Positions 12,849 through 36,029 of a DNA stretch of 64,000 bases are shown here, one piece after another. Source of the DNA: Escherichia phage adrianh. The translations under genes were made by a program, and so were the position numbers. Below the pieces are notes generated by a model that worked only from the letters and a program-made list of their open reading frames with translations, made no database searches and was not told the DNA's origin. The first letter of the stretch is position 1; each line of letters opens with the position of its first letter. The stretch lies in sequence record MN850614.1; one strand, given 5' to 3'.

Positions 12849-12878
12849 TTGACAAGGGGCTTCGAAGCCCCTTAGAAT
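12849..12878 (+). promoter_or_regulatory. Sigma70-like promoter with hairpin in spacer
   Basis: TTGACA, 18 nt spacer containing AGGGGCTTCGAAGCCCCT hairpin, then TAGAAT. Confidence 0.45.
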
Positions 12879-12922
12879 AGCCTTACAAAATGATTTATTA
12901 ACTAACAAGAGAGAGTAATAAG

Positions 12923-14032
12923 ATGACTACTAAAACTAAAGCACAGATTGACGCAGAAATTTACGAACTGGTTAAAGAAGGTAAGCTGACTAAAACAGCT
13001 ATTGCACAGAAGTTCAATACTTCAACCCGTTCAGTTGGTCGTGCTGTAGAGCGTCATGAAGCAACCTTAAAAGGTAAGAAAAAGGTAGCTTCTAAACCAG
13101 CTACGAAGACTTTGAAGCAAGTTGCTAAATCAGTTAAAAAGAAAGCTGACAAACCAGTTGAAAAGGTTGTTAAAGAGCCTGTACAGAAAGCTCCGGTAAA
13201 TAAACTGCATGAAGCTATGCAGAATGGCAACCAGATTGAGTACATGATTACTGGCGACTCTGTTATCATGACTTTCGGTGCAGATTCTGAAATCGTTGAA
13301 TCTACCCATCCGAACTACAAAGAAATCGTGATGGCTGTTGTATCCGGTGAGTATAAGAAAGCTTTCGAACTGATGAACATTCGTAAGTCTATCGAAAACT
13401 TCACTCAGGGTGCTATCACCATCAAAGGTGACAAGTTATTCTATGGTGCTGTTGAGATGCGTTCTACTCTGGTTGACCGTATTCTTCACATGATGAAGAC
13501 TGGAGATAAGGGTTTTGAACGCCTTGTGATGTTCTTCGAAAAACTGATGGAAAACCCATCTAAAGACTCTGTAGAACAACTTTGGGGATTCGTATCTCAC
13601 CTTGATGTTGAAATTGATGAAGAAGGCTACATCATTGGTTGGAAGAAAGTCTCTACTCATGAAGGCAAGCTGGTTGACTCCCACACCTACAGAGTACCTA
13701 ATGATTTGGGTAACATTGTAGAAATGCCACGTTGGATGGTTGATAATAACCGTAACGTGACTTGCTCTCAGGGTCTTCACGTTGGTGCTTGGGATTATGT
13801 TCGTTGCTTCTCAGGTGATACAATCCTGAAGGTTCGTGTCCATCCACGAGATGTTGTATCTGTTCCAACTGATTACAACGATATGAAGATGCGTTCGTCT
13901 CGTTATGAAGTTGCAGCAATCGTTGATAATCAACGTAAAGTGCTGAAAGAATGGGATGGCAAGACTGAAGCTTTGCATGTCATCGTTGGCACTGCTGGTG
14001 AACTAATCTCCCAACGTAAACGTGAAATCTAA
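12923..14032 (+). CDS. rIIB: rIIB-like protein (by synteny)
   Basis: 369 aa, directly downstream of rIIA-like gene; Lys-rich linker; no diagnostic motif. Confidence 0.35.
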   Translation: MTTKTKAQIDAEIYELVKEGKLTKTAIAQKFNTSTRSVGRAVERHEATLKGKKKVASKPATKTLKQVAKSVKKKADKPVEKVVKEPVQKAPVNKLHEAMQNGNQIEYMITGDSVIMTFGADSEIVESTHPNYKEIVMAVVSGEYKKAFELMNIRKSIENFTQGAITIKGDKLFYGAVEMRSTLVDRILHMMKTGDKGFERLVMFFEKLMENPSKDSVEQLWGFVSHLDVEIDEEGYIIGWKKVSTHEGKLVDSHTYRVPNDLGNIVEMPRWMVDNNRNVTCSQGLHVGAWDYVRCFSGDTILKVRVHPRDVVSVPTDYNDMKMRSSRYEVAAIVDNQRKVLKEWDGKTEALHVIVGTAGELISQRKREI

Positions 14033-14047
14033 TAAGTAATTTCTTAA

Positions 14048-14072
14048 AAGGCTGCTTCGGCGGCCTTTTTTA
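14048..14072 (+). terminator. Rho-independent terminator (UUCG tetraloop)
   Basis: GGCTGC TTCG GCGGCC then TTTTTT. Confidence 0.6.
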
Positions 14073-14132
14073 TTTGTATTTTGTGCAGAGTGCTGTATAA
14101 TTGTTGTCACGATAAACTAAACAGGAGAACCA

Positions 14133-14681
14133 ATGAAGAAATTGATTCTAGGTTTGTGCTTAATGTTTACAGCACACTTATCTTATGCAGTTGACTGCCC
14201 AGAGCTATCAATTAGCCAAAAAGTAAACATGTTAAAAGCTTACCAGTATGGTGAGAATAACATGGGTAAAGGTTGGGGTATCACTCTAGCTGCTATAGCC
14301 TTACAAGAGTCAGAGTTAGGTCTGAAGGTAGAGAATAAAAAGACACATGATTATGGTATCTTCCAGAATCACTTGAAGACTGTTGTAAAGCGTAACAAAA
14401 TCAGTCCTAATGTGGCTAAAAAGAAACTCTTAAAAGACTTTGACTATGCTGCTAAGGAAACTCACAAAGAGCTTGAGTTTTGGACAAAGGTGCATGGTCA
14501 GCCAAAGTCAAAGAAGACTTTACAAAAAGTCTTAGCATCATATAATGCTGGGTATTCGTACAGAATCCCTAAAGCTAAGAAATATTCTCAAGATGTTTAT
14601 AACAATATGAAAGTAATTGCTCAATGTGAATTTGCAACAAACATTTCTAAGGTAAACCATGAAAAAATTAAGAAAGTCTGA
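14133..14681 (+). CDS. Secreted lytic transglycosylase (SLT domain)
   Basis: Signal-peptide-like N-terminus; SLT motifs LQESELG, GIFQ, SYNAGY. Confidence 0.55.
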   Translation: MKKLILGLCLMFTAHLSYAVDCPELSISQKVNMLKAYQYGENNMGKGWGITLAAIALQESELGLKVENKKTHDYGIFQNHLKTVVKRNKISPNVAKKKLLKDFDYAAKETHKELEFWTKVHGQPKSKKTLQKVLASYNAGYSYRIPKAKKYSQDVYNNMKVIAQCEFATNISKVNHEKIKKV

Positions 14682-34044: not shown

Positions 34045-34064
34045 AGATATCTTTCTGGATATCT
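34045..34064. promoter_or_regulatory. Palindromic operator-like site in divergent intergenic region
   Basis: AGATATC TTTCTG GATATCT between divergently oriented gene blocks. Confidence 0.35.
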
Positions 34065-34112
34065 ATCTTTTATCTTAAAAGCCTTTTAAGAGGTCTTATA
34101 AGAGGCATACCA

Positions 34113-34484
34113 ATGAAAAACAGAACAAACAAAGGCCAGTTTAAAAAAGGCCAATCTGGAAACCCATCTGGAAGACCAAAAGGCTCTCGTAACAAAAGCT
34201 CACTTGTAAAAGCTCAACTGACCATTGATAATTCTGCTGAGTTTGCTGCAAAACTGTTTGAGGCGATTGTTACAAGGGACGCTGCTAAGCTTGCAGAGTT
34301 CGGGTTAAACACAGACGACGTAACCATCAAGAGTATGATTGAGGTCGGTAAAACCATCTTTACTCACTCAGCAGGTGAGATGAAAGCACTTGCAGCAGAC
34401 ACTAAGAAAACCACTGATAATGGTGGTCAGCCACAGACAGATAACAAACCAACGTTCTCTGCTGTAGCGACTCTCAAAAAATAA
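34113..34484 (+). CDS. Hypothetical phage protein with KGQSGNPSGRPKG N-terminal motif
   Basis: 123 aa; Gly/Pro/basic N-terminal motif seen in many small phage proteins. Confidence 0.5.
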   Translation: MKNRTNKGQFKKGQSGNPSGRPKGSRNKSSLVKAQLTIDNSAEFAAKLFEAIVTRDAAKLAEFGLNTDDVTIKSMIEVGKTIFTHSAGEMKALAADTKKTTDNGGQPQTDNKPTFSAVATLKK

Positions 34485-34565
34485 TTTTAAAAGGTGTTGA
34501 CAGACTCTACAAAGTTGCTCTAAAGTCTGTCACATCAAACAACAAATGAGAGAAGAGAGTAAAAT

Positions 34566-35981
34566 ATGAGCGAATTATTTAAACATGCGCACCTTCATGC
34601 AGGTCGAACTGAAAATGGTGCTGTAAACCATACTTCACCAATGTCTGCTCTTGTGGACTTTTACAAAGCTGCTGGTTCAAGCCGTAGCAATGTAGAAATC
34701 TTACCAGACCTGTTCTACAAAGCTTTGCGTGAGGATGTTGATGTTGCAGTTCGTATTTTACTGCATATGCGAGATGTACGAGAAGGTATGGGTGAGCGTA
34801 AAGCCTTCAGAACTGTTTTGCTTCAAGCAATTGAAGATAAAGTTTTAGAGCCTACACAGGTTCTTCGCATTATGGATAAGATTGCAGAGCTTGGTCGTTT
34901 TGATGACTTCAAAATCTTCGTAGGTACTCGTTTCGAGACAGATGCCTTCAAACATTTAGAAGCAGCATTACTAGACCCTGCAACAGCAGGTTTGGCGGCT
35001 AAGTGGTTACCACGAGTCAAACCACGTCATAAGCAGTTTGTAAAACGTTTCTGCAAGTTTGCCAACTTGAGTGAGAAAGAGTACCGCACACTGTTGTCTG
35101 CACTATCTGATACAGTTGAGCAAAAAATCTCTGCTAATGAGTTTGGTAAGATTGACTACAGTAAGATTCCTTCGCTTGCTGCTGCACGTTACCAAAAACT
35201 GTTTAACCGTAAAGATGGGGAGCGATACAAAGCTTACATCGAGTCCTTATCAAAAGGTGAGACTAAGATTAACGCTGGTGCTGTTTACCCATACGATGTG
35301 ATTAAATCTGTCAAGTATGGTAATGCAGATGTTGCTAATGAGCAGTGGAAAGCACTACCAAACTGGATGGCAGAGGGTGAAAACATTCTATGTATGTCTG
35401 ATGTTTCAAGCTCAATGTCTTGGGTGAATTTTGGTTCAATTACTGCTCTTGATATTGGTGTATCACTTGCATTGTATGTGGCAGAACGCAATACAGGTTG
35501 CTTTAAGAATGAGTTAATGGTTTATTCAACAAACCCTCACTTCATCGAACTGAGTGGTGATTTACGAAACCGCCATCGTCAGGTGATGCGACATGTTGAA
35601 TATGGTTCAACTAACTTACAAGCAGCTTTTGACCGTATTCTTGAGACAGGTAAAAGAAACAACTTGACTCAGAAAGATATGCCAAGTAAGCTTATCATCT
35701 TCTCCGATATGGAGTTCAATCAGGTTGATGGGGCTAACGGTCGTACAAACTTTGAAGCAATTCAGAGTAAGTACAAAAAAGCTGGATATAAGATGCCACA
35801 ACTGGTATTCTGGTACTTAGCAAACCGTAATGGTACTTGCGAAGTATCTGTTAAGGATAACGGTGTAGCAATGGTATCAGGGTTCTCTCCAGCCACTTTA
35901 AAAGCTCTGCTTGGTGGTGAGAAGTTTGACCCAATCAGCGTAATGCTCAAAGCAGTAATGATTGACCGTTATATCTGGTAA
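34566..35981 (+). CDS. vWA-domain protein (MIDAS motif)
   Basis: 471 aa; C-terminal half with DVSSSMS (DxSxS MIDAS-like) motif. Confidence 0.5.
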   Translation: MSELFKHAHLHAGRTENGAVNHTSPMSALVDFYKAAGSSRSNVEILPDLFYKALREDVDVAVRILLHMRDVREGMGERKAFRTVLLQAIEDKVLEPTQVLRIMDKIAELGRFDDFKIFVGTRFETDAFKHLEAALLDPATAGLAAKWLPRVKPRHKQFVKRFCKFANLSEKEYRTLLSALSDTVEQKISANEFGKIDYSKIPSLAAARYQKLFNRKDGERYKAYIESLSKGETKINAGAVYPYDVIKSVKYGNADVANEQWKALPNWMAEGENILCMSDVSSSMSWVNFGSITALDIGVSLALYVAERNTGCFKNELMVYSTNPHFIELSGDLRNRHRQVMRHVEYGSTNLQAAFDRILETGKRNNLTQKDMPSKLIIFSDMEFNQVDGANGRTNFEAIQSKYKKAGYKMPQLVFWYLANRNGTCEVSVKDNGVAMVSGFSPATLKALLGGEKFDPISVMLKAVMIDRYIW

Positions 35982-36000
35982 AAAAGTTTTAAAAAGGGTA

Positions 36001-36029
36001 TTGACAATGTGTTTGATACCCTTTAATAT
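36001..36029 (+). promoter_or_regulatory. Sigma70-like promoter upstream of tRNA array, -35 inside a hairpin
   Basis: TTGACA, 17 nt, TAATAT; GGGTAT/ATACCC inverted repeat encloses the -35. Confidence 0.55.

What the first reader, a model, noticed from the sequence alone, without database searches (positions are those of the whole stretch)
12849..36029. Sigma70-type promoters with hairpins built into the -35 or spacer
At 12849-12878 the 18 nt spacer between TTGACA and TAGAAT is itself a GC-rich hairpin (AGGGGCTTCGAAGCCCCT); at 35996-36029 the -35 TTGACA sits inside a GGGTAT/ATACCC inverted repeat; the cassette A copies place a stem-loop between TTTACA and AGATAAAG. Promoter-embedded stem-loops can couple termination of upstream transcription to initiation downstream or act as regulated promoters, and appear to be a recurring design in this genome.
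Basis: seen in the sequence. Interest (0 to 1): 0.45.

Follow-up and report, generated by a model that had tools for sequence, protein, structure and literature searches.

The report
Promoter-plus-hairpin cassettes in a Felix O1-like phage
This Felix O1-like phage builds its early promoters and RNA hairpins into single short cassettes, the same design known as PeSLs in T4-like phages, and relatives have gained and lost small genes by recombination between these cassettes.

Summary
The window is a Felixounavirus genome (98.8% identical to Escherichia phage warpig). They belong to a much larger pattern. About 25 intergenic sites combine a sigma70-type promoter with a GC-rich hairpin. The hairpin sits in the spacer, wraps the -35 or the -10, abuts the -10 as a full terminator, or starts about 10 nt after the -10.

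One correction: in cassette A the -10 is TAnnnT, 17 nt after TTTACA and inside the hairpin loop. It is not AGATAAAG.

In relatives the hexamers stay fixed while spacers and loops vary. Stems show G·U and compensatory changes. Distant genera keep the design with different sequences. Insertions and deletions between relatives break inside the cassettes.

This matches the PeSLs (promoter-early stem-loops) of T4-type phages. In Felix O1-like phages the same sequences had only been listed as "direct repeats".

Function is inferred, not shown. The hairpin most likely acts on RNA arriving from upstream, while the embedded promoter starts transcripts inside or beyond it. Verdict: real, recurrent, a new member of a known kind, of moderate interest.

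The parts
12849..12878 (+). Site 1, rIIA|rIIB junction. TTGACA, 18-nt spacer, TAGAAT. The spacer is the hairpin AGGGGCT-TCGA-AGCCCCT (12855-12872). Its 5' half, TTGACAAGGGGCTT, matches cassette A.
   Evidence: (family D18)
35993..36029 (+). Site 2, after the vWFA gene and before the tRNA cluster. Hairpin AAAGGGTAT/ATACCCTTT encloses the -35 TTGACA (36001-36006). The -10 TAATAT (36024-36029) starts on the last base of the 3' arm.
36092..36124 (+). Second promoter before tRNA-Pro. TTGACA, 18 nt, TG-extended TAAAGT (36116-36121). Arms ACCACT 36098-36103 and AGTGGT 36119-36124. Three relatives show a compensatory C-G to A-U change.
34497..34532 (+). Promoter upstream of the vWFA gene. TTGACA, 18 nt, TAAAGT (34521-34526). 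A 9-bp stem TGACAGACT/AGTCTGTCA contains both the -35 and the end of the -10.
23564..23603 (+). TTGACA, 17 nt, TAGATT (23587-23592), with the -10 in the loop of CCCCTTGA/TCGAGGGG (23573-23603).
18880..18971 (+). Cassette A copy 1. -35 TTTACA 18889-18894, -10 TAAAGT 18912-18917, inner hairpin 18896-18924, then the conserved 5' UTR and Shine-Dalgarno sequence up to the ATG at 18972.
19352..19441 (+). Cassette A copy 2. -35 at 19361-19366, -10 at 19384-19389, inner hairpin 19368-19396. Folds as a ~20-bp imperfect long hairpin, z = -5.2.
19698..19786 (+). Cassette A copy 3. -10 TATCTT, stem TGGGGTTTAA/TTAAGCCCCA with one G·U pair (19713-19743).
20300..20391 (+). Cassette A copy 4. TG-extended -10 TATGAT, inner stem GGGGCTA/TAGCCCC (20316-20343), 13-bp outer stem, z = -7.7.
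21372..21461 (+). Cassette A copy 5. -35 at 21381, inner hairpin 21388-21416.
22168..22256 (+). Cassette A copy 6. -35 at 22177, inner hairpin 22184-22212.
18598..18676 (+). First promoter of the early block, B-type. TTGACT, 17 nt, TAATAT (18598-18626), then TTGCATCAGAC, then hairpin GGGC-AATCAA-GCCC (18638-18651), then the Shine-Dalgarno sequence.
21011..21102 (+). Cassette B copy 1. TTGATT 21011-21016, 17 nt, TAAATT 21034-21039, ACTAATCAAC, hairpin GGGAGG/CCTCCC 21050-21067, conserved 5' UTR and Shine-Dalgarno sequence.
21876..21967 (+). Cassette B copy 2. -10 at 21899-21904, hairpin 21915-21932. The predicted start, about 21911-21913, is 2-4 nt before the hairpin.
23097..23189 (+). Cassette B copy 3. 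TAGACA, 17 nt, TAAATT (23097-23125), hairpin GGGGAGGG/CCTTCCCC 23136-23156.
23661..23752 (+). Cassette B copy 4. TTGCAA 23661-23666, TAAATT 23684-23689, hairpin 23700-23717.
24258..24347 (+). Cassette B copy 5. TTGACG, 17 nt, TAAATT (24258-24286), hairpin 24297-24314.
24586..24677 (+). Cassette B copy 6. TTGCAA 24586-24591, TAAATT 24609-24614, hairpin 24625-24642.
9535..9595 (+). Promoter abutting a terminator. TTGACA, 16 nt, TATGAT (9535-9562), immediately followed by the terminator hairpin 9563-9586 and its T tract. The predicted start, about 9568-9570, is inside the 5' arm.
5976..6035 (+). Promoter abutting a terminator. TTGAAA, 17 nt, TACTAT (5976-6004), then terminator hairpin 6005-6027 and T tract.
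29285..29345 (-). Promoter abutting a terminator on the - strand. TTGACC, 17 nt, TATGAT (29345-29317), then terminator 29316-29293 and T tract.
31355..31413 (-). Promoter abutting a terminator on the - strand. TTGACA, 17 nt, TATCTT (31413-31385), 3 nt, then UUCG-loop terminator 31381-31364 and T tract.
3862..3910 (+). TTGACA (3862-3867) fused to the 5' foot of a 16-bp terminator hairpin (3867-3902, then T tract). A possible weak -10, TAGGCT, sits at the apex. Two compensatory pair changes occur in relatives.
41084..41156 (+). Terminator closing the tRNA cluster (41084-41137, then T6). Its 3' arm overlaps the -35 TAGACA of a promoter (41128-41156, -10 TATACT) that faces the terminase and late genes.

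Best explanation
These are composite regulatory cassettes of the PeSL type. Each is a host sigma70 promoter for the gene downstream, with an RNA hairpin written into or against it.

Shown from sequence and comparison:
- The promoters are real sigma70-type elements. The -35 and the T, A and final T of the -10 are fixed at 16-18 nt spacing, while spacers vary.
- A hairpin is kept at the same place even where its sequence differs.
- The cassettes repeat about 85-90 nt of promoter, hairpin, 5' UTR and Shine-Dalgarno sequence in front of small genes of unknown function.
- Recombination between cassettes has added and removed those genes among relatives.

Inferred:
- The hairpin forms in RNA arriving from upstream promoters.
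- Where it carries a U tract (9563, 6005, 29316, 31381, 3867, 41084) it terminates that RNA.
- Where it has no U tract (site 1, cassette A, 34497, 36092) it attenuates that RNA or protects its 3' end.
- The embedded promoter should start RNA about 7 nt after the -10. That point is inside or beyond the hairpin, so the new transcript lacks an intact hairpin and is not stopped by it.
- In cassette B the hairpin begins 2-4 nt after the predicted start. It would then be a 5'-terminal stem-loop, which may also stabilise the mRNA.
For: Anatomy of about 25 sites.

Folds are more stable than shuffles, with z from -2.1 to -7.7 for most sites.

Hairpins are enriched at sense-strand intergenic promoter-like hits: 14/32 against 8/171, and 12/27 against 19/164 after removing duplicates, p = 1.4e-4.

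Cassette A, 107 distinct copies from 30 relatives:
- TTTACA is invariant.
- The first T and A of the -10 are invariant and the last T is at least 90% conserved. The three middle bases vary: TAAAGT, TATCTT, TATGAT, TAAGAT, TAGTAT, TACAGT.
- 97.3% of stem cells pair.
- One-sided changes are nearly all G·U, for example C-G to U·G in 40 copies. G-C to U-A occurs in 13 copies in the outer stem.

Erwinia phage Rouille (genus Kolesnikvirus) carries GGTGTTTA/TAAGCACC in place of GGGGCTTA/TAAGCCCC, a compensatory change. It also has a -10 TAAAAT forming the loop of GGGGG/CCCCC.

Site 1: the stem is conserved in all close relatives apart from two loci with a C·A mismatch, the loop varies (TCGA, TTGA, TCAA, GCAA, GAAA), and the spacer stays at 17-18 nt. 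A relative with only 57% rIIB identity (L032) has TTGACA plus an unrelated hairpin around its -10 at the same junction. It has further composite sites elsewhere.

36092: compensatory ACCACT/AGTGGT to AACACT/AGTTGT.

Promoters abutting terminators: hexamers are conserved or swapped for other good hexamers (TATGAT/TATTAT, TACTAT/TATGAT, TATCTT/TAGATT) while spacers diverge and indels restore the spacing.

Cassette B: the regex parse recovered the promoter-plus-hairpin layout in 108 of 115 copies, and more than 40 different hairpin sequences all sit about 10 nt after the -10.

Sense-strand RNA folds better than antisense in 20 of 32 hairpins, against 7 the other way, Wilcoxon p = 0.0012.

Indel break points fall inside cassettes and leave one hybrid cassette.

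The same architecture, with its subclasses, and promoter and terminator activity were shown for T4-type PeSLs (PMC2839356; PMC4122927).
Against: No transcription data exist for this phage group in the searchable literature. Start sites and 3' ends are therefore predictions.

Cassettes A and B, site 1, 34497 and 36092 have no U tract after the stem: AGAUAAAG, CACUAAAC, UUAGAAUA. Classical intrinsic termination is unlikely there.

At the promoter-terminator abutments, a start 6-8 nt after the -10 still leaves 4-6 GC pairs plus the U tract at 9563 and 31381. Self-termination is not excluded.

Covariation is modest because most stem columns never vary. Copies are related by descent and by recombination, so counts are not independent events.

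Two site-1 orthologues carry a C·A mismatch.

The sense-over-antisense advantage comes mainly from the canonical terminators. 34497 folds better as antisense.

The absolute invariance of CCCCAGATAAAGAG in cassette A is not explained by pairing alone.
Confidence: 0.6

Rival explanations
1. The hairpins are mainly RNA stability or processing signals, not terminators. The B-type hairpin would be a 5'-terminal stem-loop that shields the new mRNA from 5'-end-dependent decay. The ~20-bp imperfect cassette A hairpin in read-through RNA would be an RNase III-type processing site, as in the T7 early region, leaving a protective 3' hairpin on the upstream message.
For: There is no U tract after the A and B hairpins. 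The B hairpin starts 2-4 nt after the predicted start in 108 of 115 copies. Cassette A folds as three stacked helices (5+5+8 bp) with internal loops, z = -5.2 to -7.7. The roles of 5' stem-loops and of T7 RNase III sites come from general knowledge and were not tested here.
Against: The same layout also occurs with canonical terminators (9563, 6005, 29316, 31381), which points to termination as part of the design. The PeSL stem-loop tested in RB49/phi1 reduced downstream expression like a strong terminator. No processing data exist.
Confidence: 0.2
2. The inverted repeats are operators. A phage or host protein would bind the palindromes over the -35, spacer or -10 to switch early promoters off or on.
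For: The repeats overlap core promoter elements. Cassette A has a perfect 12-bp palindrome TAAAGTACTTTA just upstream of and overlapping the -35, and an invariant CCCCAGATAAAGAG.
Against: Stem sequences differ completely between sites: GGGGCT, GGGTAT, ACCACT, TGACAGACT, CCCCTTGA, GGGAGG. Arm spacing ranges from 4 to 17 nt. Changes are asymmetric and G·U-compatible rather than mirrored in both half-sites. Distant relatives keep a hairpin but not its sequence.
Confidence: 0.07
3. DNA-level structure. Under negative supercoiling the repeats would extrude as hairpins that present the -10 single-stranded in a loop. This would make structure-dependent promoters, as in N4 early promoters or single-strand promoters such as Frpo.
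For: In cassette A, 23564, 34497, 36092 and an Erwinia phage site, the -10 lies in the loop and the -35 lies in or next to the stem.
Against: Short stems with 11-17 nt loops extrude poorly (general knowledge). G·U-type changes and the sense-strand bias favour RNA. The hexamers and spacings are ordinary duplex sigma70 geometry. Sites with the hairpin wholly in the spacer or after the -10 do not fit.
Confidence: 0.04
4. Coincidence of two ordinary features. The hairpins would be plain terminators, and the hexamer matches beside them would be fortuitous in AT-rich intergenic DNA, or kept only because the repeats homogenise one another by recombination.
For: Promoter-like matches are common in this 39% GC genome, with 45-83 per 20 kb against about 52 expected. 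The cassettes do recombine.
Against: Exact TTGACA or TTTACA at 16-18 nt from TAnnnT is conserved while the spacer between them diverges, including indels that restore the spacing. Non-homologous versions of the same layout occur in distant relatives. Hairpins are enriched over control hits.
Confidence: 0.04

Closest known systems
PeSLs (promoter-early stem-loops) of T4-type myoviruses: RB49/phi1, T4/PST, KVP40/nt-1 (Arbiol et al. 2010, PMC2839356; Comeau et al. 2014, PMC4122927)
   Same: - A sigma70-like early promoter is fused to a G-run/C-run stem-loop.
- The stem-loop lies between the boxes, over the -35 or -10, or just after the -10.
- The cassette runs from the upstream stop codon in an AT-rich stretch to the Shine-Dalgarno sequence and ATG, about 100 bp.
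- Cassettes cluster in front of small genes of unknown function.
- Indels between close relatives have break points in the cassettes.
- The T4/PST consensus TTTACW-N17-TAYWAT resembles cassette A.
   Different: - A different phage subfamily (Ounavirinae, ~86 kb).
- No detectable sequence similarity. Cassette A and B queries gave no hit outside records of ~83-90 kb from Escherichia, Salmonella, Shigella, Citrobacter and (cassette A only) Erwinia phages, the size and hosts of Ounavirinae, apart from one or two records with other host names that were not inspected.
- Cassette A is a longer, three-helix hairpin that pairs the -35 region with an invariant AGATAAAG.
- Promoter, terminator and mini-circle activities are untested here.
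'Direct repeats' reported in Felix O1 (Whichard et al. 2010, PMC3185647) and annotated as DR_1 to DR_9 in phage wV8 (EU877232)
   Same: They are the same sequences. The 57-bp repeat CTTTACATGGGGCTTAAAAGTCTGTAAAGTAAGCCCCAGATAAAGAGCTTTACCACT is cassette A. The 39-bp repeat TTGACACTGGTTTTTAGATAGATTAAATTACACATCAAC is the promoter half of cassette B.
   Different: They were recorded only as repeats. That paper listed five other host-like promoters and left open how transcription passes the many terminators. It did not note promoters, hairpins or a recombination role.
Rho-independent terminators followed by a separate promoter (the conventional intergenic order)
   Same: The hairpins at 9563, 6005, 29316, 31381, 3867 and 41084 are canonical GC stems with T tracts.
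   Different: The order is inverted or overlapped. The promoter ends where the terminator begins, or the terminator's 3' arm carries the -35. The conventional order is seen clearly only at 14046-14069, with a promoter about 25 nt later.
5'-terminal stem-loops that stabilise E. coli mRNAs (ompA type) and RNase III sites between T7 early genes (general knowledge)
   Same: The B-type hairpin lies at the predicted 5' end of the mRNA. The cassette A long hairpin lies between early genes in read-through RNA.
   Different: There is no experimental link here. This resemblance is in layout only.

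Membership tests
PeSL-type composite promoter/stem-loop cassette | Sigma70-like promoter (-35, 16-18 nt spacer, -10) facing the downstream gene | tested here: met
   Scans. Hexamers conserved against variable spacers.
PeSL-type composite promoter/stem-loop cassette | Stable stem-loop between the boxes, overlapping -35 or -10, or just downstream of -10 | tested here: met
   All of these positions are found. The structure is kept with G·U and compensatory changes.
PeSL-type composite promoter/stem-loop cassette | [quoted passage not shown] | tested here: met
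   Six A copies and seven B-type copies of 80-92 nt in the window. 133 A hits and 115 B hits across the window and relatives together.
PeSL-type composite promoter/stem-loop cassette | Concentrated in a variable region of small genes of unknown function | tested here: met
   18.6-24.9 kb holds 17 small genes, all annotated as hypothetical in warpig. Gene content differs among relatives.
PeSL-type composite promoter/stem-loop cassette | Recombination between cassettes explains indels between close relatives | tested here: met
   Genes 18677-18883, 19442-19675, 19787-20299, 21968-22171, 23753-24283 and 24348-24611 are each absent in some relatives. A single hybrid cassette remains at the joint.
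PeSL-type composite promoter/stem-loop cassette | Promoter activity and terminator/attenuator activity of the stem-loop | not testable with these tools
   Needs reporter assays or 5'/3' end mapping. No transcriptome was found. The A and B hairpins lack U tracts.
PeSL-type composite promoter/stem-loop cassette | Excised cassette-plus-gene mini-circles | not testable with these tools
   Needs inverse PCR on infected cells or virion DNA.
PeSL-type composite promoter/stem-loop cassette | Found in T4-type phages, or sequence-related to their PeSLs | tested here: not met
   The window is a Felixounavirus. Cassette queries gave no hit that looked like a T4-type phage. It works like a PeSL but is an independent lineage.
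Canonical intrinsic terminator | GC-rich hairpin followed directly by a U tract | tested here: inconclusive
   Met at 9563, 6005, 29316, 31381, 3867 and 41084. Partly met at site 2 and 23564, with 5 T in 8. Not met at site 1, cassettes A and B, 34497 and 36092.
Any curated RNA family (Rfam 15) | Match at gathering threshold | tested here: not met
   Only tRNAs matched in the whole window.

The most novel reading that the evidence does not exclude
The embedded repeats are more than RNA signals. Cassette A-type promoters put the -10 in the loop, and the -35 in the stem, of an inverted repeat that could extrude. They would then be structure- and supercoiling-dependent promoters for the host polymerase. 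This would parallel the hairpin promoters of phage N4, and would time early transcription by the topological state of the injected DNA.
Probability: 0.05. Interest if true: 0.8.

Novelty: new member of a known kind. Interest (0 to 1): 0.4.

Why it matters
Felix O1-like phages are widely used for Salmonella and E. coli typing, biocontrol and therapy. Their transcription programme is still essentially unmapped. The 2010 genome paper found five host-like promoters and could not say how transcription passes the many terminators.

Reading the "direct repeats" as promoter-plus-hairpin cassettes has three consequences:
- It gives a concrete map of about 25 predicted early transcription units, with testable start and stop positions.
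- It explains why the early region is the most variable part of these genomes.
- It shows that the PeSL design, so far described only in T4-type phages, arose or spread in a second, unrelated group of myoviruses.

It also marks natural, self-contained insertion points for phage engineering.

Tried and rejected
- **AGATAAAG as the -10 of cassette A: rejected.** It starts about 30 nt after the -35. The 17-nt position carries an invariant T and A and a 90%-conserved last T.
- **The upstream TAAAGT of cassette A as the -10 of a B-like promoter: rejected.** It aligns with B's TAAATT-ACTAATCAAC, but no -35 lies 17 nt upstream in the copies inspected.
- **Known RNA family: none.** Rfam found only tRNAs.
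- **Transcriptome or start-site data for Felix O1-like phages: none found**. One search was set too loosely and returned irrelevant papers.
- **My first hairpin finder was too strict.** It allowed at most one G·T pair and missed site 2 and 29316. I added an energy-based comparison, which in turn truncates some hairpins and is conservative.
- **Single-protein operator: rejected as the main explanation**, because stems and arm spacings differ between sites.
- **Chance: rejected** on enrichment and on conservation.
- **Protein-level tools were not used.** The question concerns non-coding DNA.

Full report
**Identity of the window.** A 4-kb piece around the first site is 98.8% identical to Escherichia phage warpig (Felixounavirus, Ounavirinae), and more than 270 related records match it. 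Using warpig's annotation:
- Site 1 lies between rIIA and rIIB.
- Site 2 lies between a vWFA-domain gene and a cluster of 24 tRNA genes.
- "Cassette A" lies in a run of small hypothetical genes at 18.6-24.9 kb.

**Observation.** All three descriptions are correct at the stated coordinates.
- Site 1 is TTGACA, then AGGGGCTTCGAAGCCCCT (18 nt), then TAGAAT.
- Site 2 has arms AAAGGGTAT and ATACCCTTT around TTGACA, followed by TAATAT after a 17-nt spacer.
- Cassette A occurs six times as TTTACA-N-GGGGCTTA-loop-TAAGCCCC-AGATAAAG.
- Folding against dinucleotide shuffles gives z = -2.3 for site 1, -3.7 for site 2, and -5.2 and -7.7 for two cassette A copies.
- The shared 5' half, TTKACANGGGG, occurs 7 times against 0.08 expected.

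**Correction.** AGATAAAG cannot be the -10 for TTTACA because it starts about 30 nt downstream. In 107 distinct cassette A copies from the window and 30 related genomes:
- TTTACA is invariant.
- Exactly 17 nt later comes a hexamer whose first T and A are invariant and whose last T is at least 90% conserved.
- The three middle bases vary: TAAAGT, TATCTT, TATGAT, TAAGAT, TAGTAT, TACAGT.

That is the conservation signature of a sigma70 -10 element, and it lies in the loop of the hairpin.

**The wider pattern.** I group them into four layouts.
1. The hairpin is the spacer: site 1.
2. The 5' arm lies on or just after the -35, and the -10 lies in the loop or the 3' arm: cassette A (six copies), 23564, 34497, site 2 and 36092.
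3. The -10 ends where a canonical terminator hairpin with a T tract begins: 5976/6005, 9535/9563, 29345/29316 and 31413/31381 on the minus strand. Weaker cases are at 1640 and 26655. At 3862 a TTGACA is fused to the foot of a 16-bp terminator. At 41128 the -35 overlaps the 3' arm of the terminator that closes the tRNA cluster.
4. A second repeat family, cassette B (six copies plus the first early promoter at 18598). It has a variable but good -35, 17 nt, TAAATT, ACTAATCAAC, then a GGGAGG/CCTCCC-type hairpin.

The conventional order, terminator first and promoter afterwards, is clear only at 14046.

Hairpins of -9 kcal/mol or better overlap 14 of 32 sense-strand intergenic promoter-like hits but only 8 of 171 other hits. 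An energy-based version that counts duplicate copies once gives 12 of 27 against 19 of 164, Fisher p = 1.4e-4.

**Comparative evidence.** I fetched 30 loci around rIIB and 26 around the vWFA gene from viral contigs.
- *Site 1.* The GGGGCT/AGCCCC stem is kept in all close relatives, apart from two loci with a C·A mismatch. The loop varies (TCGA, TTGA, TCAA, GCAA, GAAA). A one-base deletion in the more distant group still leaves a 17-nt spacer. A relative with only 57% rIIB identity has TTGACA plus an unrelated hairpin (AAGTGGTC/GGCCACTT) around its -10 at the same junction.
- *36092.* Three relatives changed ACCACT/AGTGGT to AACACT/AGTTGT, a compensatory pair change. At 34497 an A-to-G change gives a G·U pair.
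- *Promoter-terminator abutments.* The hexamers are conserved or replaced by other good hexamers, spacers diverge, and indels restore the spacing. The 3867 terminator shows two compensatory pair changes.
- *Cassette A, formal count.* 97.3% of cells pair. One-sided changes are almost all G·U, for example 40 copies with U·G at one pair. One outer-stem pair switches G-C to U-A in 13 copies. Most columns never vary, so the covariation is modest.
- *Erwinia phage Rouille.* This different genus has cassette A-like copies with GGTGTTTA/TAAGCACC, a compensatory change relative to GGGGCTTA/TAAGCCCC. It also has a site where the -10 TAAAAT is the loop of GGGGG/CCCCC.
- *Cassette B.* A GC hairpin sits at the same distance from the -10 in 108 of 115 copies, with more than 40 different hairpin sequences.
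- *Strand bias.* Across 32 hairpins the sense-strand RNA folds better than the antisense in 20 and worse in 7, p = 0.0012. This bias comes mainly from the canonical terminators.

**Recombination.** Aligning 17-25.3 kb of the window to the relatives shows that nearly every break in collinearity falls in a cassette. Six window genes are each missing from some relatives: 18677-18883, 19442-19675, 19787-20299, 21968-22171, 23753-24283 and 24348-24611. In those relatives a single hybrid cassette matches the upstream copy on its left and the downstream copy on its right.

**What it is.** This is the architecture described for PeSLs in T4-type phages. Those are strong sigma70-like promoters fused to G-run/C-run stem-loops in five positional subclasses. 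[quoted passage not shown] Promoter and terminator activity were shown by reporters (PMC2839356; PMC4122927).

The Felix O1 cassettes share no detectable sequence with the T4-type elements. Cassette queries hit only relatives of this phage. In the Felix O1 literature the same sequences appear only as 57-bp and 39-bp "direct repeats" and as DR_1 to DR_9 in the wV8 record. That paper also left open how transcription passes the many terminators. Rfam has no matching family.

**Mechanism (inferred).**
- With a start about 7 nt after the -10, transcripts from layouts 1 and 2 begin beyond, or at the last bases of, the hairpin. Transcripts from layout 3 begin inside the 5' arm of the terminator. Only RNA coming from upstream contains the complete hairpin.
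- That RNA would be terminated where a U tract follows. Where none follows, it would be attenuated, processed or protected at its 3' end.
- Cassette B transcripts would begin 2-4 nt before the hairpin, giving a 5'-terminal stem-loop.

Weak points:
- There are no transcript data.
- The commonest hairpins have no U tract.
- Residual GC pairs plus a U tract remain at 9563 and 31381 after the predicted start.
- CCCCAGATAAAGAG is invariant and unexplained.

**Rivals.** Alternatives are RNA processing or stability rather than termination, protein operators, DNA hairpin promoters, and coincidence. They are weighed in the structured fields. The operator and coincidence readings are disfavoured for three reasons: stems and arm spacings differ between sites, changes are G·U-compatible rather than symmetric, and non-homologous versions of the layout recur in distant relatives.

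**Verdict.** The feature is a new lineage of a known kind of element. Interest is moderate.

Noticed in passing
window 18239-18420 (and 14070-14090): Four direct copies of TTCATTT(T)CA-N3-4-TGTGCAGGTA lie in the 509-nt gene-free gap after the terminator at 18197-18238. A looser fifth copy lies between the terminator at 14046 and an extended -10 (TGTATAAT). This could be a phage-specific promoter, a set of regulator sites, or iterons.
   Followed up: partly
window ~18390-18460; loci L017, L018, L021, L026: Four independent metagenome contigs end at this position, just upstream of the first early promoter (18598). Phage UAB_Phi87 is reported to have 608-bp terminal direct repeats (PMC4837284). 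The physical genome end may therefore lie here, with the cassette-rich early region entering the cell first.
   Followed up: partly
window 24927-26628: A 1.7-kb gene-free region lies between the + strand early block and the - strand block. It has short CTGTTAAG-type repeats at 25801-25947 and a degenerate cassette A remnant fused to a strong terminator at 24936-24991 (GGGGCTAAATAGCCCCAGATACCTTTACAGCCCC...GGGGCTTTTTT).
   Followed up: no
window 37788-37866, 38071-38098: Rfam calls a weak extra tRNA (31.7 bits) that ARAGORN does not report. T-arm-like repeats suggest tRNA remnants inside the 24-tRNA cluster. A strong promoter-like site (TTGACA, 17 nt, TATACT) sits inside the cluster at 37555-37583.
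   Followed up: no
window cassette B hairpins (e.g. 21915-21932): The 5' arm GGGAGG resembles a Shine-Dalgarno sequence. The 3' arm CCUCC resembles the anti-Shine-Dalgarno sequence and could also pair with the real Shine-Dalgarno sequence about 25 nt downstream. A role in translation control is conceivable.
   Followed up: no
window 18921-18934 and the five other cassette A copies: CCCCAGATAAAGAG is identical in all 107 distinct cassette A copies from genomes down to about 70% nucleotide identity. It is more conserved than the -10. Pairing with CTTTA explains only part of this. The GC-rich stretch AAGCCCC coincides with the promoter discriminator.
   Followed up: partly
L060 (Erwinia phage Rouille, OQ818707) 601-5750; L032 270-298, 5242-5270: Other genera of the subfamily carry their own versions of the promoter-in-hairpin layout with different stem sequences. 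Examples are a -35 TTGAAA in the loop of AAAGGGGT/GACCCCTTT, and a -10 TAAAAT as the loop of GGGGG/CCCCC.
   Followed up: partly
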